Sequence record: PZ445515.1
Reading direction: 5' to 3' (one strand)
Source of the DNA: a phage
DNA length: 64,000 nucleotides
The notes beneath the pieces were generated by a model that was not told the origin of the DNA, did no database searches, and saw nothing but the letters and a program-made list of their open reading frames with translations. Of the stretch, positions 27,732 through 61,665 are shown in pieces; position 1 is the first letter of the stretch; every line of letters starts with the position of its first letter. The position numbers and the translations under genes were made by a program.

Positions 27732-27929
27732 ATGAAAAAAGTTTTACTGCTGTCTGTATTCCTACTTACTGGTTGTTTTAAACTTGACTCAACCATTAAT
27801 AAAGAGTATGAATTTGCTAAAAATTTCTGTGGCGGAGAGAGTAATATAAAGAATTTCTACATATATAGTACAATTCCTAGTACCGTTTATTGTGTAGACG
27901 GACGAATTATTAATATTCCTCCACAATAA
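27732..27929 (+). CDS. small putative lipoprotein
   Basis: 65 aa; signal peptide with lipobox LLTGC. Confidence 0.5.
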   Translation: MKKVLLLSVFLLTGCFKLDSTINKEYEFAKNFCGGESNIKNFYIYSTIPSTVYCVDGRIINIPPQ

Positions 27930-35278: not shown

Positions 35279-35307
35279 GTTGCTTAGATGCCCAAACTTT
35301 TGTATAA
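35279..35307 (+). promoter_or_regulatory. T5-type early promoter
   Basis: TTGCTT -35, 17 bp, TATAAT -10. Confidence 0.6.
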
Positions 35308-35339
35308 TATGTTTATAGATTGAGGCAAGAGGATTAAAT

Positions 35340-36038
35340 ATGAGGATTATTTCTAAGTTCGCCGATGTGTATGACTTGCAGAACAGTTTGTTCGACCCAG
35401 ATCGTGTTTGGGAACGTAAAACTGAAGAGTTGCTGGTCAAAGTAACCGATGATGCAGAAAAGAACATTGTGCATACTCGCCAGGTATTTCGTGATGGTTC
35501 GCTATCTTTCCGTGGTGATTTCGAATATTTTGTAAACCCACTATTTGTTGCAGGTGAAGTTTACTGGTTACACGAGCTGTACTGCTGGCATCCAGCATTT
35601 AGCTTCAAAACGTTCAACCTCGACACTATGTTCGATAAAATGGAAGAGATGGGATTGCATGCTCGCTCTTATTTAATGGATAAGAGTCGCGGAGATGTTC
35701 GTGAAACAATGCGTGATTTGCTCGCGGAAGCAAAACCTAAAGCAGAACGTATCTTATCCGAACTGCGTGTACCGATTGCATATGTGAAAGGTATTAAAAA
35801 GAACGATAACGATGATGTTCGTAACTTCGTGATTCAGACTAACATTCGTTTCCATCAATCAGGTATTCCGTGGCAGGAAATTGAAAGTAACTTATACCGT
35901 TTACACCAAGTTCTCGAACAGTATATCTTTGGAGTACTAGGAACTGGTGAGCCTGATATGATTAAAGTATCAGATAAAGACAGGTTAGCAGCGCATGGAT
36001 TTGATACAAAAACTTCTTTCAGGAATATGGCACGGTAA
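35340..36038 (+). CDS. hypothetical protein
   Basis: 232 aa ORF. Confidence 0.6.
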   Translation: MRIISKFADVYDLQNSLFDPDRVWERKTEELLVKVTDDAEKNIVHTRQVFRDGSLSFRGDFEYFVNPLFVAGEVYWLHELYCWHPAFSFKTFNLDTMFDKMEEMGLHARSYLMDKSRGDVRETMRDLLAEAKPKAERILSELRVPIAYVKGIKKNDNDDVRNFVIQTNIRFHQSGIPWQEIESNLYRLHQVLEQYIFGVLGTGEPDMIKVSDKDRLAAHGFDTKTSFRNMAR

Positions 36039-36444
36039 GTGGTATATCCTGGGAGCAGGTCTAGCGATAGGCATCGGATTCGGTGCTTATCACTTAGTAG
36101 ATAAAGTGGAGACTTTAGCGGGAGATCTTGCAGTAGCTACTAAAAAGATCTCTTCTCTAGAGACTTCCCTTAATAAGGTGAAAGCTGAAAGTGAACTTCG
36201 TGAGACTAGAATGAATCAGTATTTCACGATGAATAATATTTCTCAAGCAGATCTAGACAAAAAGATTAAGCAGCTAGATAAAGCTCTTAGTCGTCAAGAT
36301 GTTATCGCTGCAAAACCTGGATTGGTAACATTGATTGCTAAAAAGCAGAATAAAGAGTTCGAGGAAAGATTAGCGTGTTTAACTGGAAACTTGGAGTACT
36401 GCTCGCAGCCACAATCACAATCACAGGCTGTGCAGAAGAAATAA
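35995..36444 (+). CDS. putative i-spanin-like protein (N-terminal TM plus coiled coil)
   Basis: 149 aa; single N-terminal TM helix, periplasmic coiled-coil region; next gene is an overlapping lipoprotein. Confidence 0.4.
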   Translation: MDLIQKLLSGIWHGKWYILGAGLAIGIGFGAYHLVDKVETLAGDLAVATKKISSLETSLNKVKAESELRETRMNQYFTMNNISQADLDKKIKQLDKALSRQDVIAAKPGLVTLIAKKQNKEFEERLACLTGNLEYCSQPQSQSQAVQKK

Positions 36445-36728
36445 AACCAGAGCCATCTCATGAGTTAAAGCAAGCTCATGTAGACTGGCCTAAAGGACTT
36501 CAACCTTGTAGCTTTGACTTTAAGTTTGAAAAGAAATTAGCTACAAATGGAGAAGATGGCGTAGTAGTTGTTATACCATACAAAGATTGGAATGCAAAAG
36601 CAAAATGTGAGGAAGCAGTTTACTCTTACATTTCACGACTGACTGGTATGGTCTGCTTCTATCGTCAAGATTTACAAGAAAAACGTTGCTTAGTTTACTA
36701 TCCACCAATTAACAATAGGAAAGATTAA
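36375..36728 (+). CDS. putative o-spanin-like outer-membrane lipoprotein
   Basis: 117 aa, GTG start; signal peptide with lipobox ITGC; 5' end overlaps upstream gene in another frame. Confidence 0.4.
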   Translation: MFNWKLGVLLAATITITGCAEEIKPEPSHELKQAHVDWPKGLQPCSFDFKFEKKLATNGEDGVVVVIPYKDWNAKAKCEEAVYSYISRLTGMVCFYRQDLQEKRCLVYYPPINNRKD

Positions 36729-37480
36729 TGTCAGTATTAGTCGGTTTACATGGTGAAGCTGGTTCGGGAAAAGATACCGTTGCAAAATTAATTATCGATT
36801 GGTGTAATGACACGTATCCAACGTGTTTATCTCGTCGTTATAGTTTTGCTAAGCCCGTTTATGAACTTGCATCCGTAATCCTCGGTGTAACTCCAGAGTT
36901 TCTAGGAGAGCGCAGGGGAAAAGAGATTGACCAATGGTTTACGGTCACACAATCTCAGTTGGAACGAGCCAGGGATGTGTGGTTTAAGTACGGTATCGAT
37001 AAGTTTGAAGACTTCTCGTACGTTTGGCCTATTTTTGAGGAAAAATATCTTAATCCTCAACAACTTATATCAGAGAATAAAGAAGACGGTCTTTATAGCT
37101 TATTTATTTCTCCGAGAAAAATGTTACAGCTCGTAGGGACAGAGCTAGGAAGGCAGCTGGTGCATGAACGCATTTGGCTCATAATTCTGGAGCAATCCAT
37201 CGCTAAAGACGACCCAGATGTCGCCGTAATAACAGATGTTAGATTCCCCAATGAAGGAGAGTTACTCAGAGAAACAAACCATTTAGATATGGATTCTTTG
37301 ATAGTAAATGTAGTACCCGCTGAGCAGAAGTTCACTATTAAATCAGATCATCCATCTGAAAGTGGTATTCCTGCAAAATATATTACTCACGAATTAGTTA
37401 ATAAATTCGATGGTATCAATAACCTTAAACTAGAAGTTTATAACTTCTGTGACTTAGAGCTAGAACCACTAGTTGGATAA
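36728..37480 (+). CDS. dnk: deoxynucleoside monophosphate kinase
   Basis: 250 aa; P-loop GEAGSGKDT; size and position as in T5-like phages. Confidence 0.7.
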   Translation: MSVLVGLHGEAGSGKDTVAKLIIDWCNDTYPTCLSRRYSFAKPVYELASVILGVTPEFLGERRGKEIDQWFTVTQSQLERARDVWFKYGIDKFEDFSYVWPIFEEKYLNPQQLISENKEDGLYSLFISPRKMLQLVGTELGRQLVHERIWLIILEQSIAKDDPDVAVITDVRFPNEGELLRETNHLDMDSLIVNVVPAEQKFTIKSDHPSESGIPAKYITHELVNKFDGINNLKLEVYNFCDLELEPLVG

Positions 37481-37492
37481 TCAAGGATCACT

Positions 37493-38092
37493 ATGACTAA
37501 TAAAAAAGAAGAAAAGACTAACCTGTTTCACTCCATTCGCCAATCTAATGAGTATACCTTTTTCTTTGATGAAGAATTAGGCCCGCCGGATGAATACCGT
37601 GATTTATCAATGGTACTTATGCAAGCAAATGAGGACGACGAAATTAATCTGATGATTAATGGCCCTGGTGGTTATGTTGATACTGCTGCACAGTTATCTA
37701 ACTTAATTGCTAATTGCCGTGGAACAGTTATAGGACATCTGGTTGGTCCTAGTGCTTCTGCTTACTGCACAATTTTCCTATCCTGTCATGGGTGGGTAGT
37801 ACATCCACATGCTACGCTAATGGGACACACGTTCTCTGGCGGATTCTGTGAGAAGGGTCAAGAAATCAAGAAAGCCTATGAATCTTACAACAAGTTCGTA
37901 GAAGATATGATGCTAGATGTCTACTATCCGTTTTTCTCAATAGACGAAATCGATGAGATGGTAAAAGACAACAAAAATATCTATCTAGATAGCAAAGAAA
38001 TCCATAAGCGTATTGAAATCTTGGCAAAATATCGATCTGAGCAGTATAATAAAGCCCAGTTACCTCAATCAGAGGAGCATAAAGAAGAGTAA
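37493..38092 (+). CDS. ClpP-like serine protease
   Basis: 199 aa; INGPGGYV, GPSASA (Ser) and VVHPH (His) resemble ClpP catalytic motifs. Confidence 0.6.
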   Translation: MTNKKEEKTNLFHSIRQSNEYTFFFDEELGPPDEYRDLSMVLMQANEDDEINLMINGPGGYVDTAAQLSNLIANCRGTVIGHLVGPSASAYCTIFLSCHGWVVHPHATLMGHTFSGGFCEKGQEIKKAYESYNKFVEDMMLDVYYPFFSIDEIDEMVKDNKNIYLDSKEIHKRIEILAKYRSEQYNKAQLPQSEEHKEE

Positions 38093-38100
38093 GTAGTTTT

Positions 38101-38133
38101 AAGCCAGGGTTTAACGACCCTGGCTTTTCTTTT
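38101..38133 (+). terminator. rho-independent terminator
   Basis: Hairpin aagccagggt...accctggctt followed by TTCTTTTAT. Confidence 0.7.
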
Positions 38134-38196
38134 ATCTAAAATTCTTCTTGACAACGACAAAATTTTGTGCTCCAAAGAAAATCTTTAAAAACACAT

Positions 38197-38224
38197 TGTA
38201 ATTTTCCTCCAAAATTAGTATAAT
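38197..38224 (+). promoter_or_regulatory. sigma70-type promoter upstream of lysis genes
   Basis: TTGTAA -35, 17 bp, TATAAT -10; also TTGACA at 38148. Confidence 0.4.
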
Positions 38225-38248
38225 GGTACTGGTTAGAGGAGGTTACAA

Positions 38249-38905
38249 TTGGAAAAGTTCTTACAATTATTAACGGTACTGCTCCAAGAAGCGAAAGATC
38301 CAGCATCGCTTCTTAAACGTCTGCTAACTATCTTAGTTGCTGTCATTATTTTCTTATTTGTTAGTAATACTAGCGAGGTGATGTCATTCTTAAAGACTTT
38401 CTCCACGTCTGCGGTTCTACAGGATGTTCAAACTCAAAGGATAGATAACTTTCCTAATGTAGCTAGAGAAAAGAGCATGGTACTCTTTTCTCAAACGGGT
38501 GCGGATGCTGTTTTTGTAGTCAAGTATAAACCCGATGCCATTAATGATTATTCTAACATTATTGCATGGGAAAGCAATGCGCAATTAGATAGGGCTGACT
38601 TGGCCGATAAAGCAGTAAATAAAACGTCTGAGCTATACAGACGTCACTTAGAGGGCTTTAACTACGCATCGGATTTAAGTGTAAGAGTAAATAAATATAC
38701 GGGGTTAAATATACCTGCGTTTAAGAACGTTACTTTTAATTACATATACACTTGTCCATATTTCAATCTAAACAATATCTATGCTGGATATATTGGTATT
38801 GCTTGGAAAGATAATCCTGTAGATGCAGCCGATTCTGAGAAATTTAAGGAATATTTAACAAAGCTCTGTTCCCCACAACAGAGATCTTTAGGTAGATCAA
38901 TATGA
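38249..38905 (+). CDS. holin (T4 T-type, single TM with large periplasmic domain)
   Basis: 218 aa; one N-terminal TM helix; immediately upstream of endolysin with 4-nt overlap; TTG start after GAGGAGG. Confidence 0.7.
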   Translation: MEKFLQLLTVLLQEAKDPASLLKRLLTILVAVIIFLFVSNTSEVMSFLKTFSTSAVLQDVQTQRIDNFPNVAREKSMVLFSQTGADAVFVVKYKPDAINDYSNIIAWESNAQLDRADLADKAVNKTSELYRRHLEGFNYASDLSVRVNKYTGLNIPAFKNVTFNYIYTCPYFNLNNIYAGYIGIAWKDNPVDAADSEKFKEYLTKLCSPQQRSLGRSI

Positions 38906-39315
38906 GTTTTAAATTTGGTAAAAATAGCGAAAAACAATTAGCTACCGTTAAGCCAGAGCTACAAAAAGTAGCTCGTAGAGCTTTAGAATTATCTCCATAT
39001 GATTTCACGATCGTACAGGGTATTCGTACAGTAGCACAAAGTGCCCAGAATATTGCTAATGGTACTTCATTTTTAAAAGATCCTAGTAAAAGCAAGCATA
39101 TTACTGGGGATGCCCTTGATTTTGCTCCATACATTAATGGCAAAATTGATTGGAATGATTTAGAAGCATTTTGGGCAGTTAAAAAGGCTTTTGAACAAGC
39201 GGGTAAAGAACTAGGCATTAAACTTCGTTTTGGTGCTGATTGGAATGCTTCGGGAGATTATCACGACGAAATAAAACGTGGTACCTATGATGGCGGTCAT
39301 GTCGAACTAGTTTAA
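38902..39315 (+). CDS. endolysin, L-alanyl-D-glutamate peptidase (M15 family)
   Basis: 137 aa; SKHITGDALD matches S-x-H-x-x-G-x-A-x-D zinc-binding motif; size as T5 endolysin. Confidence 0.85.
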   Translation: MSFKFGKNSEKQLATVKPELQKVARRALELSPYDFTIVQGIRTVAQSAQNIANGTSFLKDPSKSKHITGDALDFAPYINGKIDWNDLEAFWAVKKAFEQAGKELGIKLRFGADWNASGDYHDEIKRGTYDGGHVELV

Positions 39316-39326
39316 TTAATAACTGA

Positions 39327-39349
39327 GGCGGGAATATTCCCGCCTTTTT
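39327..39349 (+). terminator. rho-independent terminator
   Basis: Hairpin ggcggga-atat-tcccgcc followed by TTTTTA. Confidence 0.75.
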
Positions 39350-39392
39350 AGGCAAAGGGGGCTTTAATAATTTTTGAAGATAGGAGAAAGCC

Positions 39393-39809
39393 ATGTTTGC
39401 AGAACTATTCACTATGATGCTGCTAGGTATCTGGAAAATAAGTCTAGTAGTATTCGTTTTAATGATAGTCTTTACTATCATTGCATTAACTACCCGAAAT
39501 AGCTTATTAATAAAGGTTATTCACGGACTAGAGTATATAATTATGGGTTCATTCGGCGTTTGTAAATGCAATTGCCATAGAGATACGAAATATTGTTGGT
39601 TATGGATGGAACTAGAGAATCCTATATCCATAGCTTTGGCTGTTTCATTCGGTATGATTCTTATGGCCCTTACTCTAGCATTAATACCTTTGATGTTAGC
39701 TGGGGGAGTTACAGCGTATTTCACCCTTTTCTCCCCGATACTTATGTACTCAATTTACCCAATAACTATGTATCTAGTTAGGAAAAAATTTATACATGCA
39801 GTAGATTAA
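39393..39809 (+). CDS. hypothetical membrane protein
   Basis: 138 aa, several hydrophobic segments. Confidence 0.5.
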   Translation: MFAELFTMMLLGIWKISLVVFVLMIVFTIIALTTRNSLLIKVIHGLEYIIMGSFGVCKCNCHRDTKYCWLWMELENPISIALAVSFGMILMALTLALIPLMLAGGVTAYFTLFSPILMYSIYPITMYLVRKKFIHAVD

Positions 39810-61398: not shown

Positions 61399-61665
61399 TT
61401 ACAGGTAGTTAGATTGCTCTAGTTTAAATTTACAATCACCATATTTAAGGTCAAACTGACTGAGATCCCACCATCCAAACTTAGTACGGAGCTGTACTAC
61501 TGGGAAGCGATCTCCCTTAATACGAACTTTTTGAACCTTGAGGCCGTAATGTTCTTCTCCCGCACCACCAAAAGATTTTACAAATCCAGTACAAAATGGT
61601 TTGGGAGCAGGTGCACAACCAGATAACATAACTGCGGCAACTAGTGCAATCACAAACTTTTTCAT
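61399..61665 (-). CDS. llp: Llp-like lipoprotein (receptor-blocking superinfection-exclusion candidate)
   Basis: 88 aa; signal peptide with lipobox LSGC; divergently adjacent to pb5-like gene as in T5 llp/oad. Confidence 0.6.
   Translation of the reverse strand: MKKFVIALVAAVMLSGCAPAPKPFCTGFVKSFGGAGEEHYGLKVQKVRIKGDRFPVVQLRTKFGWWDLSQFDLKYGDCKFKLEQSNYL

What the first reader, a model, noticed from the sequence alone, without database searches (positions are those of the whole stretch)
35995..36728. Possible overlapped spanin pair located about 2 kb upstream of holin-endolysin
A 149-aa protein with one N-terminal TM helix and a coiled-coil periplasmic part is followed by a 117-aa lipoprotein (lipobox ITGC) whose gene begins in a different frame inside the 3' end of the first gene. 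This matches i-spanin/o-spanin architecture, but the lipoprotein is larger than typical Rz1 and the pair is separated from the holin/endolysin at 38249-39315 by dnk and a ClpP-like gene.
Basis: inference. Interest (0 to 1): 0.4.

Follow-up and report, generated by a model that had tools for sequence, protein, structure and literature searches.

The report
T5-type overlapped spanin gene pair

Summary
ORF 35995-36444 encodes 149 aa with one hydrophobic helix at residues 17-35. ORF 36375-36728 encodes a 117-aa lipoprotein (GTG start, lipobox ITGC, Cys19, Ala at +2). The two overlap by 70 nt in different frames. Substitution patterns in 27 relatives show both frames are coding.

The window is a Tequintavirus, 100% identical to phage T5_ev212 over 35300-39400. 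The pair is 94% and 90% identical to T5 ORF041 and ORF040. These are the type members of the overlapped 'T5' spanin family in the curated SpaninDB (Kongari 2018), which also reports a 70-bp overlap.

Both proteins fall in the same PHROGs (739 and 812) as T4 PseT.3/PseT.2. That T4 pair complements a lambda Rz/Rz1 lysis defect. Its two essential cysteines align with invariant C94/C105 here.

The large lipoprotein size is normal for T4-type o-spanins. The order spanins-dnk-Clp-holin-endolysin is conserved across Demerecviridae. No experiment on a T5-family pair was found.

Verdict: interpretation supported, already known, low interest.

The parts
35995..36444 (+). i-spanin gene (149 aa): short cytoplasmic tail (residues 1-16), one transmembrane helix, and a periplasmic helical domain carrying the invariant AKPxL motif and C-terminal Cys128/Cys136
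   Evidence: ORF. PHROG 739 at E 1.6e-37. 94% identity to T5 ORF041. Coding-type substitution pattern. K107, P108 and L110 are invariant in 31 homologues.
36043..36099 (+). Region coding the i-spanin transmembrane helix (residues 17-35, YILGAGLAIGIGFGAYHLV)
   Evidence: Top Kyte-Doolittle 19-residue window, score 1.55. A hydrophobic segment is present at the same place in all family members.
36375..36728 (+). o-spanin gene (117-aa precursor, 98-99-aa mature lipoprotein); GTG start
   Evidence: ORF. PHROG 812 at E 3.3e-30. 90% identity to T5 ORF040. G18, C19, P39, C94, Y96 and C105 are invariant in 40 homologues. AF2 mean pLDDT 79, above 90 in the core; the viral fold search returns o-spanins.
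36375..36431 (+). Region coding the lipoprotein signal peptide, ending in lipobox ITGC (36420-36431); Cys19 is the lipidated residue and Ala20 is the +2 residue
   Evidence: Regex and hydropathy. G-C is invariant across the family.
36375..36444 (+). 70-nt dual-coding overlap: i-spanin C-terminal residues 127-149 (including Cys128 and Cys136) and o-spanin signal-peptide residues 1-23 are read in different frames
   Evidence: In the overlap the i-frame shows 43 synonymous: 22 non-synonymous changes and the o-frame 5:79. So the i-spanin tail is the more constrained reading and the signal peptide tolerates conservative change.
36728..37480 (+). dnk (deoxynucleoside monophosphate kinase); not a lysis gene, but apparently in the same transcription unit as the spanins
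   Evidence: PHROG 139 at E 6.9e-52 and Pfam DNMK.
37493..38092 (+). Clp-like protease gene; the last gene before the terminator
   Evidence: PHROG 1827 at E 1.8e-90 and Pfam CLP_protease.
38101..38126 (+). Terminator-like hairpin (11 pairs followed by a T-run) that separates the spanin-containing unit from the holin/endolysin unit
   Evidence: A putative terminator is annotated at the equivalent place in T5 AY587007.
38196..38224 (+). Promoter-like site (TTGTAA-17-TATAAT) just upstream of the holin gene
   Evidence: It corresponds in position to the putative early promoter T5P12 in AY587007.
38249..38905 (+). Holin of the T4 gpt type (class III)
   Evidence: Pfam Phage_holin_T at E 2.8e-112 and PHROG 860.
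38902..39315 (+). Endolysin (M15 L-alanyl-D-glutamate peptidase type)
   Evidence: PHROG 465 at E 2.2e-54. Relatives annotate it as L-alanyl-D-glutamate peptidase.

Best explanation
The two genes encode the two-component spanin of a T5-like phage, in the overlapped gene arrangement.

Inferred steps, by homology and from the lambda/T4 model:
1. The 149-aa protein inserts into the inner membrane through its single N-terminal helix. A mostly helical domain of about 114 residues extends into the periplasm.
2. The 117-aa precursor is lipidated at Cys19 and cleaved by signal peptidase II. Because residue +2 is Ala and not Asp, the Lol system sends it to the inner leaflet of the outer membrane.
3. 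The C-terminal parts of the two proteins bind each other, forming a bridge through the peptidoglycan mesh.
4. Disulfide bonds stabilise the complex. C94/C105 of the o-spanin correspond to the two essential cysteines of T4 PseT.2.
5. The complexes accumulate harmlessly until the T4-type holin (38249-38905) releases the L-Ala-D-Glu peptidase endolysin (38902-39315).
6. Once the wall is degraded, the complexes can move and change shape. They fuse the inner and outer membranes, removing the last barrier to virion release.

Shown here: the genes, their coding status, the localisation signals, the family membership and the homology to T4 PseT.3/PseT.2.

Not shown here: localisation, complex formation, disulfide bonding and the lysis role.
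For: - Localisation signals and gene architecture.
- Purifying selection in both frames, and both ORFs intact in all 34 T5-like loci scanned.
- PHROG 739/812 'Rz-like spanin' at E 1.6e-37 and 3.3e-30.
- T4 PseT.3 and PseT.2 hit the same PHROGs at E 1.3e-37 and 5e-42. Direct BLASTP against T4 gives 29% identity for both, E 1e-7 (o-spanin) and 3e-6 (i-spanin).
- The T4 pair complemented lambda RzamRz1am, and PseT.2 C87 and C98 were each essential (PMC6139136). Those cysteines align with window C94/C105, which have the same 11-residue spacing and are invariant in 40 homologues.
- 94% and 90% identity to T5 ORF041/ORF040, the namesakes of the SpaninDB 'T5' overlapped family with a 70-bp overlap.
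- The lipobox G-C is invariant across the family.
- AF2 of the o-spanin gives a confident small alpha/beta core behind a flexible linker. Its significant fold matches in the viral library include proteins named o-spanin, PseT.2 or Rz1; the other significant matches carry no name.
- Conserved synteny with a T-type holin and an endolysin across Demerecviridae.
Against: - I found no direct experiment on any T5-family spanin in the held literature.
- The genes sit in a different apparent transcription unit from holin/endolysin, together with dnk and a Clp-like protease.
- The i-spanin AF2 model has low confidence. The heptad signal is modest and limited to residues about 36-65.
- The charge bias around the transmembrane helix is weak, so the N-in topology rests on homology.
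- No Pfam or NCBIfam model in the local libraries matches either protein.
- No solved structure matches either protein by sequence, or the o-spanin model by fold.
Confidence: 0.93

Rival explanations
1. The lipoprotein is a receptor-blocking or superinfection-exclusion lipoprotein of the T5 Llp or Cor type, and the upstream membrane protein is unrelated. On this reading the spanin-like layout is coincidental.
For: - T5-like phages are known to make an early-expressed lipoprotein, Llp, that blocks FhuA (background cited in PMC4342426).
- The pair lies in an early-type operation unit rather than next to the holin.
- No direct functional data exist for it.
Against: - The o-spanin belongs to PHROG 812 together with T4 PseT.2, not to the Cor family.
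- A different ORF in the window (61399-61665, minus strand) is the Cor-like lipoprotein (PHROG 1119, E 1.8e-26).
- The transmembrane partner co-occurs and is syntenic in every relative examined, and is itself homologous to T4 PseT.3.
- The two cysteines essential in T4 PseT.2 are invariant.
Confidence: 0.03
2. The pair descends from spanins but is not the functional outer-membrane disruptor in this phage. Another gene, such as the 65-aa lipoprotein at 27732-27929 that PHROGs also label 'Rz-like spanin', or an unrecognised disruptin-type protein, does the job.
For: - A second lipoprotein in the window hits PHROG 6073 'Rz-like spanin' at E 1.2e-28.
- The pair is separated from the holin/endolysin unit.
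Against: - The 65-aa lipoprotein is found in only about 83 phage records, against about 550 for the pair.
- It sits among tRNA genes and has no transmembrane partner ORF nearby.
- The pair is under clear purifying selection in both frames.
- The pair is conserved across Demerecviridae genera.
Confidence: 0.03
3. One or both ORFs are chance open frames or mis-called starts and are not real genes.
For: - The o-spanin uses a GTG start and overlaps another gene.
- Several database records, including the 100%-identical T5_ev212 record and RefSeq S131, do not call it or do not name it.
Against: - Third-position-biased variation and synonymous:non-synonymous ratios 4- to 10-fold better than the wrong frames.
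- ATG stands at the same position in most relatives.
- Homologues with an invariant lipobox exist down to about 20% identity.
Confidence: 0.01

Closest known systems
T5 spanin family of SpaninDB (T5 ORF041/ORF040; Kongari et al. 2018, PMC6139136)
   Same: - 94% (i-spanin) and 90% (o-spanin) amino-acid identity.
- The same 70-nt overlap and the same lipobox.
- The same 2 + 4 periplasmic cysteines.
- The same position upstream of dnk.
   Different: The cytoplasmic N-terminal tail of the i-spanin is a different mosaic variant. The window has MDLIQKLLSGIWHGKW where T5 has MRKWFVDLVWNNKM (or the annotated internal Met). This goes with a different upstream gene: a 232-aa PHROG 4243 ORF here, an HNH endonuclease in T5. 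The window also uses GTG rather than ATG as the o-spanin start.
T4 PseT.3 / PseT.2 (separated two-component spanin, experimentally validated)
   Same: - Same PHROGs, 739 and 812, and 29% identity for both proteins.
- The AKPxL motif in the i-spanin.
- The WP motif and the C-x10-C C-terminal cysteine pair (T4 C87/C98 = window C94/C105) in the o-spanin.
- An o-spanin with predicted structure rather than a short proline-rich peptide.
- Spanin genes not adjacent to holin/endolysin.
- The accompanying holin is also of the T4 T type.
   Different: - In T4 the two genes overlap by only 4 nt and are classed as separated. Here they overlap by 70 nt.
- The T5-type i-spanin has a C-terminal extension of about 20 residues carrying a conserved C-L-[TS]-G-x4-C motif. 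T4-like i-spanins lack it.
- The T5-type o-spanin has an extra co-varying cysteine pair (C45/C78) and a longer tail.
Lambda Rz / Rz1
   Same: Same functional class and same overall topology: a type II inner-membrane protein plus an outer-membrane lipoprotein. Periplasmic cysteines are present in both components.
   Different: - No detectable sequence similarity, and no Pfam hit at E <= 0.1.
- Lambda Rz1 is fully embedded in Rz, is 60 aa, proline-rich and unstructured.
- Here the genes are only partly overlapped, the mature lipoprotein is 98-99 aa with 7% Pro, and it has a predicted beta-hairpin plus long helix.
- The lambda genes lie inside the SRRzRz1 lysis cassette.
P2 LysB / LysC (prototype overlapped spanins)
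   Same: Overlapped architecture, with the o-spanin gene starting inside the 3' end of the i-spanin gene and extending beyond it.
   Different: - No sequence relationship was found. Only T4 PseT.3 gives a non-significant hit to NCBIfam phage_LysB (E 0.07).
- P2 uses the +1 frame. This pair uses the -1 frame.

Membership tests
Two-component spanin (functional class) | i-spanin: a small protein with a single N-terminal transmembrane domain (N-in, C-out) | tested here: met
   There is one hydrophobic segment, residues 17-35 (KD 1.55), and no other. Topology itself is only inferred, because the flanking charge bias is weak.
Two-component spanin (functional class) | i-spanin periplasmic domain is largely alpha-helical or coiled-coil | tested here: inconclusive
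   AF2 secondary structure is mostly helical (H2-50, 56-72, 83-99, 111-129), but mean pLDDT is 52. A heptad pattern is significant only for residues about 36-65 (15 of 1000 shuffles). Kongari 2018 notes that more than 120 accepted i-spanins have no coiled-coil prediction.
Two-component spanin (functional class) | o-spanin: SPase II signal with lipobox and Cys, and no inner-membrane retention residue (Asp) at +2 | tested here: met
   The N-terminus is MFNWKLGVLLAATITITGC|AEE, with lipobox ITGC and Ala at +2. G-C is invariant in 40 homologues.
Two-component spanin (functional class) | The genes are adjacent in an embedded, overlapped or separated arrangement | tested here: met
   Overlapped by 70 nt, with the o-spanin in the -1 frame. 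Thirty of the 34 T5-like loci scanned keep this. The other 4 are 'separated' by a homing-endonuclease gene insertion.
Two-component spanin (functional class) | At least one periplasmic cysteine available for intermolecular disulfides | tested here: met
   The i-spanin has C128 and C136. The mature o-spanin has C45, C78, C94 and C105. This 2 + 4 pattern lies within the ranges tabulated in PMC6139136.
Two-component spanin (functional class) | Physical complex between the C-terminal regions of the i- and o-spanin, spanning the periplasm | not testable with these tools
   No multimer prediction or model coordinates were available. The combined periplasmic length of about 212 residues lies within the reported 62-300 range.
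Two-component spanin (functional class) | Required for outer-membrane disruption, or complements lambda Rz/Rz1 mutants | not testable with these tools
   This is an experiment. It has been shown only for the distant homologues T4 PseT.3/PseT.2. Nothing was found for T5-type pairs.
SpaninDB 'T5' i- and o-spanin families (Kongari 2018) | >= 40% identity over >= 40% of the periplasmic domain to family members | tested here: met
   94% (i-spanin) and 90% (o-spanin) identity to T5 ORF041/ORF040 over the full aligned length.
T4 PseT.3/PseT.2-type spanins (PHROG 739 / 812) | Significant profile match to the same families as the T4 proteins | tested here: met
   Window proteins: E 1.6e-37 and 3.3e-30. 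T4 proteins: E 1.3e-37 and 5e-42.
T4 PseT.3/PseT.2-type spanins (PHROG 739 / 812) | The two C-terminal o-spanin cysteines that are essential in T4 (C87, C98) | tested here: met
   They align with window C94 and C105, both invariant in 40 sequences, with the same 11-residue spacing.
Lambda Rz/Rz1 family | Sequence homology to Rz/Rz1, an embedded gene arrangement, and a short proline-rich unstructured Rz1 | tested here: not met
   No Pfam family matched at E <= 0.1. The genes are overlapped, not embedded. The mature lipoprotein is 98-99 aa with 7% Pro and a confidently predicted alpha/beta core.
Unimolecular spanin (T1 gp11 type) | [quoted passage not shown] | tested here: not met
   The lipoprotein has no hydrophobic C-terminal segment. 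Its C-terminus is ...YYPPINNRKD.

The most novel reading that the evidence does not exclude
The T5-type pair may record how a separated T4-type spanin locus became an overlapped one. On this reading the i-spanin gene was extended by about 20 codons across the region that codes the o-spanin signal peptide. That added a conserved C-L-[TS]-G-x4-C disulfide module, while the o-spanin gained a co-varying C45/C78 pair, predicted to be an intramolecular staple. Homing-endonuclease gene insertions (Shivani type) can then convert the locus back to 'separated'. If true, the extra cysteines would make this complex differ mechanistically from T4, where only two o-spanin cysteines exist and both are essential. 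The T4-T5 link is already implicit in the PHROG clustering. Kongari 2018 kept the two families apart and did not discuss the link in the sections I read.
Probability: 0.35. Interest if true: 0.25.

Novelty: already known. Interest (0 to 1): 0.1.

Why it matters
It matters little beyond correct annotation. The record identical to the window (T5_ev212) names these genes only 'Phage protein', and some RefSeq relatives, such as S131, omit the overlapped lipoprotein gene altogether. Confirming the pair therefore completes the lysis gene set of this phage: T-type holin, M15 endolysin and two-component spanin.

There are two modest points of wider interest. First, T5-type and T4-type phages share homologous holins and homologous spanins. 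Second, the T5 type carries six periplasmic cysteines, against two in T4. That makes it a convenient comparison system for asking how disulfide bonds contribute to spanin-driven membrane fusion.

Tried and rejected
- Pfam and NCBIfam scans gave nothing meaningful for either protein. All o-spanin homologues in the large protein database carry a precomputed PF26831, but that model is not in the local Pfam copy, so I cannot name it.
- PDB sequence searches with the single proteins and with the o-spanin profile found only noise.
- A Foldseek search of the o-spanin model against the PDB found nothing at E <= 0.001. No solved structure of this o-spanin type appears to exist in that copy.
I used the single protein instead.
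I re-ran it on A4.
- The i-spanin AF2 model was too uncertain for a fold search.
- Model coordinates are not exposed, so I could not measure the C45-C78 distance. The predicted disulfide rests on covariation only: 8 sequences have both cysteines, 32 have neither, none is mixed. These sequences are phylogenetically clustered, so this represents few independent events.
- Summer et al. 2007 (JMB), the first survey of Rz/Rz1 equivalents, is not held.
- I considered the 65-aa 'Rz-like spanin' lipoprotein at 27732-27929 as an alternative o-spanin and rejected it. It is sporadic among relatives and has no partner gene.
- I considered an Llp/Cor-type role for the 117-aa lipoprotein and rejected it.
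Full report
**What the window is.** The segment 35300-39400 is 100% identical to Escherichia phage T5_ev212. It is 98-100% identical to several other Tequintavirus genomes, and 454 phage records match it. The window is therefore a T5-like phage (Demerecviridae). In T5 itself (AY587007) the finding corresponds to ORF041 and ORF040, just upstream of dnk.

**Checking the observation.**
- The ORF list reproduces both reading frames exactly: 35995..36444 (ATG, 149 aa) and 36375..36728 (GTG, 117 aa).
- The first protein has a single strongly hydrophobic segment, residues 17-35.
- The second begins MFNWKLGVLLAATITITGC|AEE. This is a basic residue, a hydrophobic core and the lipobox ITGC, with Cys19 and Ala at +2.
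- GTG at 36375 is the only start codon in that open frame.
- The overlap is 70 nt and the frame offset is 2, i.e. the -1 frame.

**Are both frames really coding?** I compared 27 distinct T5-like sequences that are 88-100% identical to the window.
- Upstream of the overlap, 62 of 87 variable sites fall on third positions of the i-frame. Synonymous:non-synonymous is 421:105, against 75:445 and 35:494 in the wrong frames.
- Downstream, 49 of 74 variable sites fall on third positions of the o-frame. The ratio is 327:151, against 35:445 and 46:441.
- Inside the overlap the i-spanin tail is the better conserved reading (43:22). The o-spanin signal peptide absorbs the changes as conservative replacements (5:79), which fits the known sequence tolerance of signal peptides.
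- Both ORFs are intact in all 34 T5-like loci scanned. Most relatives have ATG where the window has GTG. That difference is silent in the i-spanin frame.

**What it is.**
- PHROGs places the two proteins in families 739 and 812, both labelled 'Rz-like spanin', at E 1.6e-37 and 3.3e-30.
- Carefully annotated relatives call the same ORFs i-spanin and o-spanin: DaisyDussoix, IrmaTschudi, Seabear, Sealy, Shivani and others.
- The curated survey of Kongari et al. 2018 (PMC6139136) lists a 'T5' family among overlapped i-spanins and among overlapped o-spanins. It states that the T5 spanins overlap by 70 bp.
- The window proteins are 94% and 90% identical to T5 ORF041/ORF040.
- tblastn finds the o-spanin in 560 phage records and the i-spanin in 542.

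**Link to an experimentally tested system.**
- The weakest tblastn hit of the lipoprotein was pseT.2 of a T4-like Edwardsiella phage.
- T4 PseT.3 and PseT.2 hit the same two PHROGs at E 1.3e-37 and 5e-42.
- Direct BLASTP of the window proteins against T4 gives 29% identity for both, at E 3e-6 (i-spanin) and 1e-7 (o-spanin).
- In a 40-sequence alignment of o-spanin homologues the invariant residues are G18 and C19 (lipobox), P39, C94, Y96 and C105.
- C94 and C105 align with T4 PseT.2 C87 and C98 and have the same 11-residue spacing.
- Kongari et al. showed that pseT.3-pseT.2 complements a lambda RzamRz1am lysis defect, and that each of C87 and C98 is essential.
- In a 31-sequence i-spanin alignment, K107, P108 and L110 (the AKPxL motif) are invariant.

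The spanin assignment therefore rests on homology to a tested pair, not only on architecture.

1. *The lipoprotein is larger than typical Rz1.* This is true only against lambda Rz1. T4-type o-spanins are precursors of about 95-110 aa and were already described as larger and more structured than Rz1. AF2 predicts a flexible N-terminal linker (residues 20-49), then a beta-hairpin (50-66) and a long helix (69-96), with pLDDT above 90 in the core. Its significant matches in the viral structure library include proteins named o-spanin, PseT.2 or Rz1, alongside others that carry no name. The combined periplasmic length of about 212 residues lies inside the 62-300 range reported for two-component spanins.
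2. *The pair lies 2 kb from holin/endolysin.* The order i-spanin/o-spanin/dnk/Clp-like protease/holin/endolysin recurs in Klebsiella phage Sealy, Providencia phage PR1, Proteus phage VTCCBPA139, Pectobacterium phage DU_PP_V and Salmonella phage Shivani. Across these the o-spanin identity falls to 26%. A terminator-like hairpin follows the Clp-like gene (38101-38126) and a promoter-like site precedes the holin (38196-38224). These match the putative terminator and early promoter T5P12 annotated in T5. So the spanins are probably transcribed apart from holin/endolysin. In T4 the spanin genes are likewise not located near t and e. The holin here is itself a T4 T-type holin (Pfam Phage_holin_T, E 2.8e-112).

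**How it most likely works (inferred from the lambda/T4 model summarised).** The i-spanin is anchored in the inner membrane. The o-spanin is lipidated at Cys19 and sorted to the outer membrane. Their C-terminal regions bind, and disulfide-linked complexes thread the peptidoglycan. When holin-released endolysin removes the wall, the complexes fuse the two membranes. None of these steps has been shown for a T5-type pair.

**Features specific to the T5 type.**
- The i-spanin has a C-terminal extension with a conserved C-L-[TS]-G-x4-C motif, which T4-like i-spanins lack. It is encoded by the same DNA as the o-spanin signal peptide.
- The o-spanin has a second cysteine pair, C45/C78. It is present in 8 sequences, absent in 32 and never split. 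I read it as a probable intramolecular disulfide, but the support comes from few independent lineages.
- The 2 + 4 periplasmic cysteine count is at the high end of the published distribution.

**Rivals.**
- A receptor-blocking (Llp/Cor-like) role for the lipoprotein is unlikely. It groups with PseT.2, while a different ORF (61399-61665, minus strand) is the Cor-like lipoprotein.
- A second 'Rz-like spanin' label in the window (27732-27929, PHROG 6073) belongs to a sporadically distributed 65-aa lipoprotein. It sits among tRNA genes and has no membrane-protein partner.
- The chance-ORF explanation is excluded.

**Verdict.** The feature is already known: a member of the catalogued T5 spanin family and a distant homologue of T4 PseT.3/PseT.2. 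Interest is low. The value is mainly in annotation, because the identical database record labels these genes only 'Phage protein'.

Noticed in passing
window 27732-27929 (+): A 65-aa lipoprotein (MKKVLLLSVFLLTGC|FKLD...) in the tRNA region hits PHROG 6073 'Rz-like spanin' at E 1.2e-28. It occurs in only about 83 phage records: a subset of T5-likes plus a few large Salmonella and Cronobacter phages. It has no adjacent transmembrane partner ORF. It is probably an orphan accessory lipoprotein whose spanin label is automatic.
   Followed up: partly
window 61399-61665 (-): An 88-aa lipoprotein (MKKFVIALVAAVMLSGC|APAP...) matches PHROG 1119 'Cor superinfection exclusion protein' at E 1.8e-26. It is a likely receptor-blocking lipoprotein, which would be the functional analogue of T5 Llp.
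   Followed up: no
window 35995-36042 and upstream ORF 35340-36038: The 5' end of the i-spanin gene is a mosaic junction. At least three different cytoplasmic N-terminal tails occur among relatives: MDLIQKLLSGIWHGKW, MIKNFISSLWQGKW and MRKWFVDLVWNNKM. They go with different upstream genes: a 232-aa PHROG 4243 ORF here, overlapping the i-spanin start by 44 nt, and an HNH endonuclease in T5. The T5 GenBank start (134 aa, Met directly before the transmembrane helix) may be too short, because the frame is open for a 147-aa version with a basic tail.
   Followed up: partly
L009 2409-3854 (Shivani); also L034-L036 and IrisVonRoten (H75): A homing-endonuclease gene of about 700 bp is inserted exactly between the i- and o-spanin genes, turning the overlapped pair into a separated one. 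The i-spanin tail becomes ...CLSGSLEYCRDERKNK and the o-spanin N-terminus becomes MHKIKLG.... The lipobox and both i-spanin cysteines are kept. This was already described by Kongari 2018.
   Followed up: partly
window 38249-38905 together with 35995-36728: The holin (Pfam Phage_holin_T, E 2.8e-112) and both spanin subunits are homologous to those of T4, while the endolysin is an M15 peptidase. So T5-like and T4-like phages share three of their four lysis proteins despite being otherwise unrelated virions.
   Followed up: partly
L002 (RefSeq S131) 1576-1929; LR597659 (T5_ev212): There are annotation gaps in public records. RefSeq S131 has no CDS for the overlapped o-spanin gene. The record identical to the window calls both genes only 'Phage protein'. 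A few other records label the i-spanin 'putative terminase' or 'outer membrane lipoprotein i-spanin'.
   Followed up: no
window 39393-39809 (+): A 138-aa ORF that looks polytopic and very hydrophobic lies directly downstream of the endolysin (PHROG 5944, unknown function, E 1e-82). A hypothetical ORF occupies the same position after the endolysin in T5, Sealy and Shivani. Any role in lysis or lysis control is untested.
   Followed up: no
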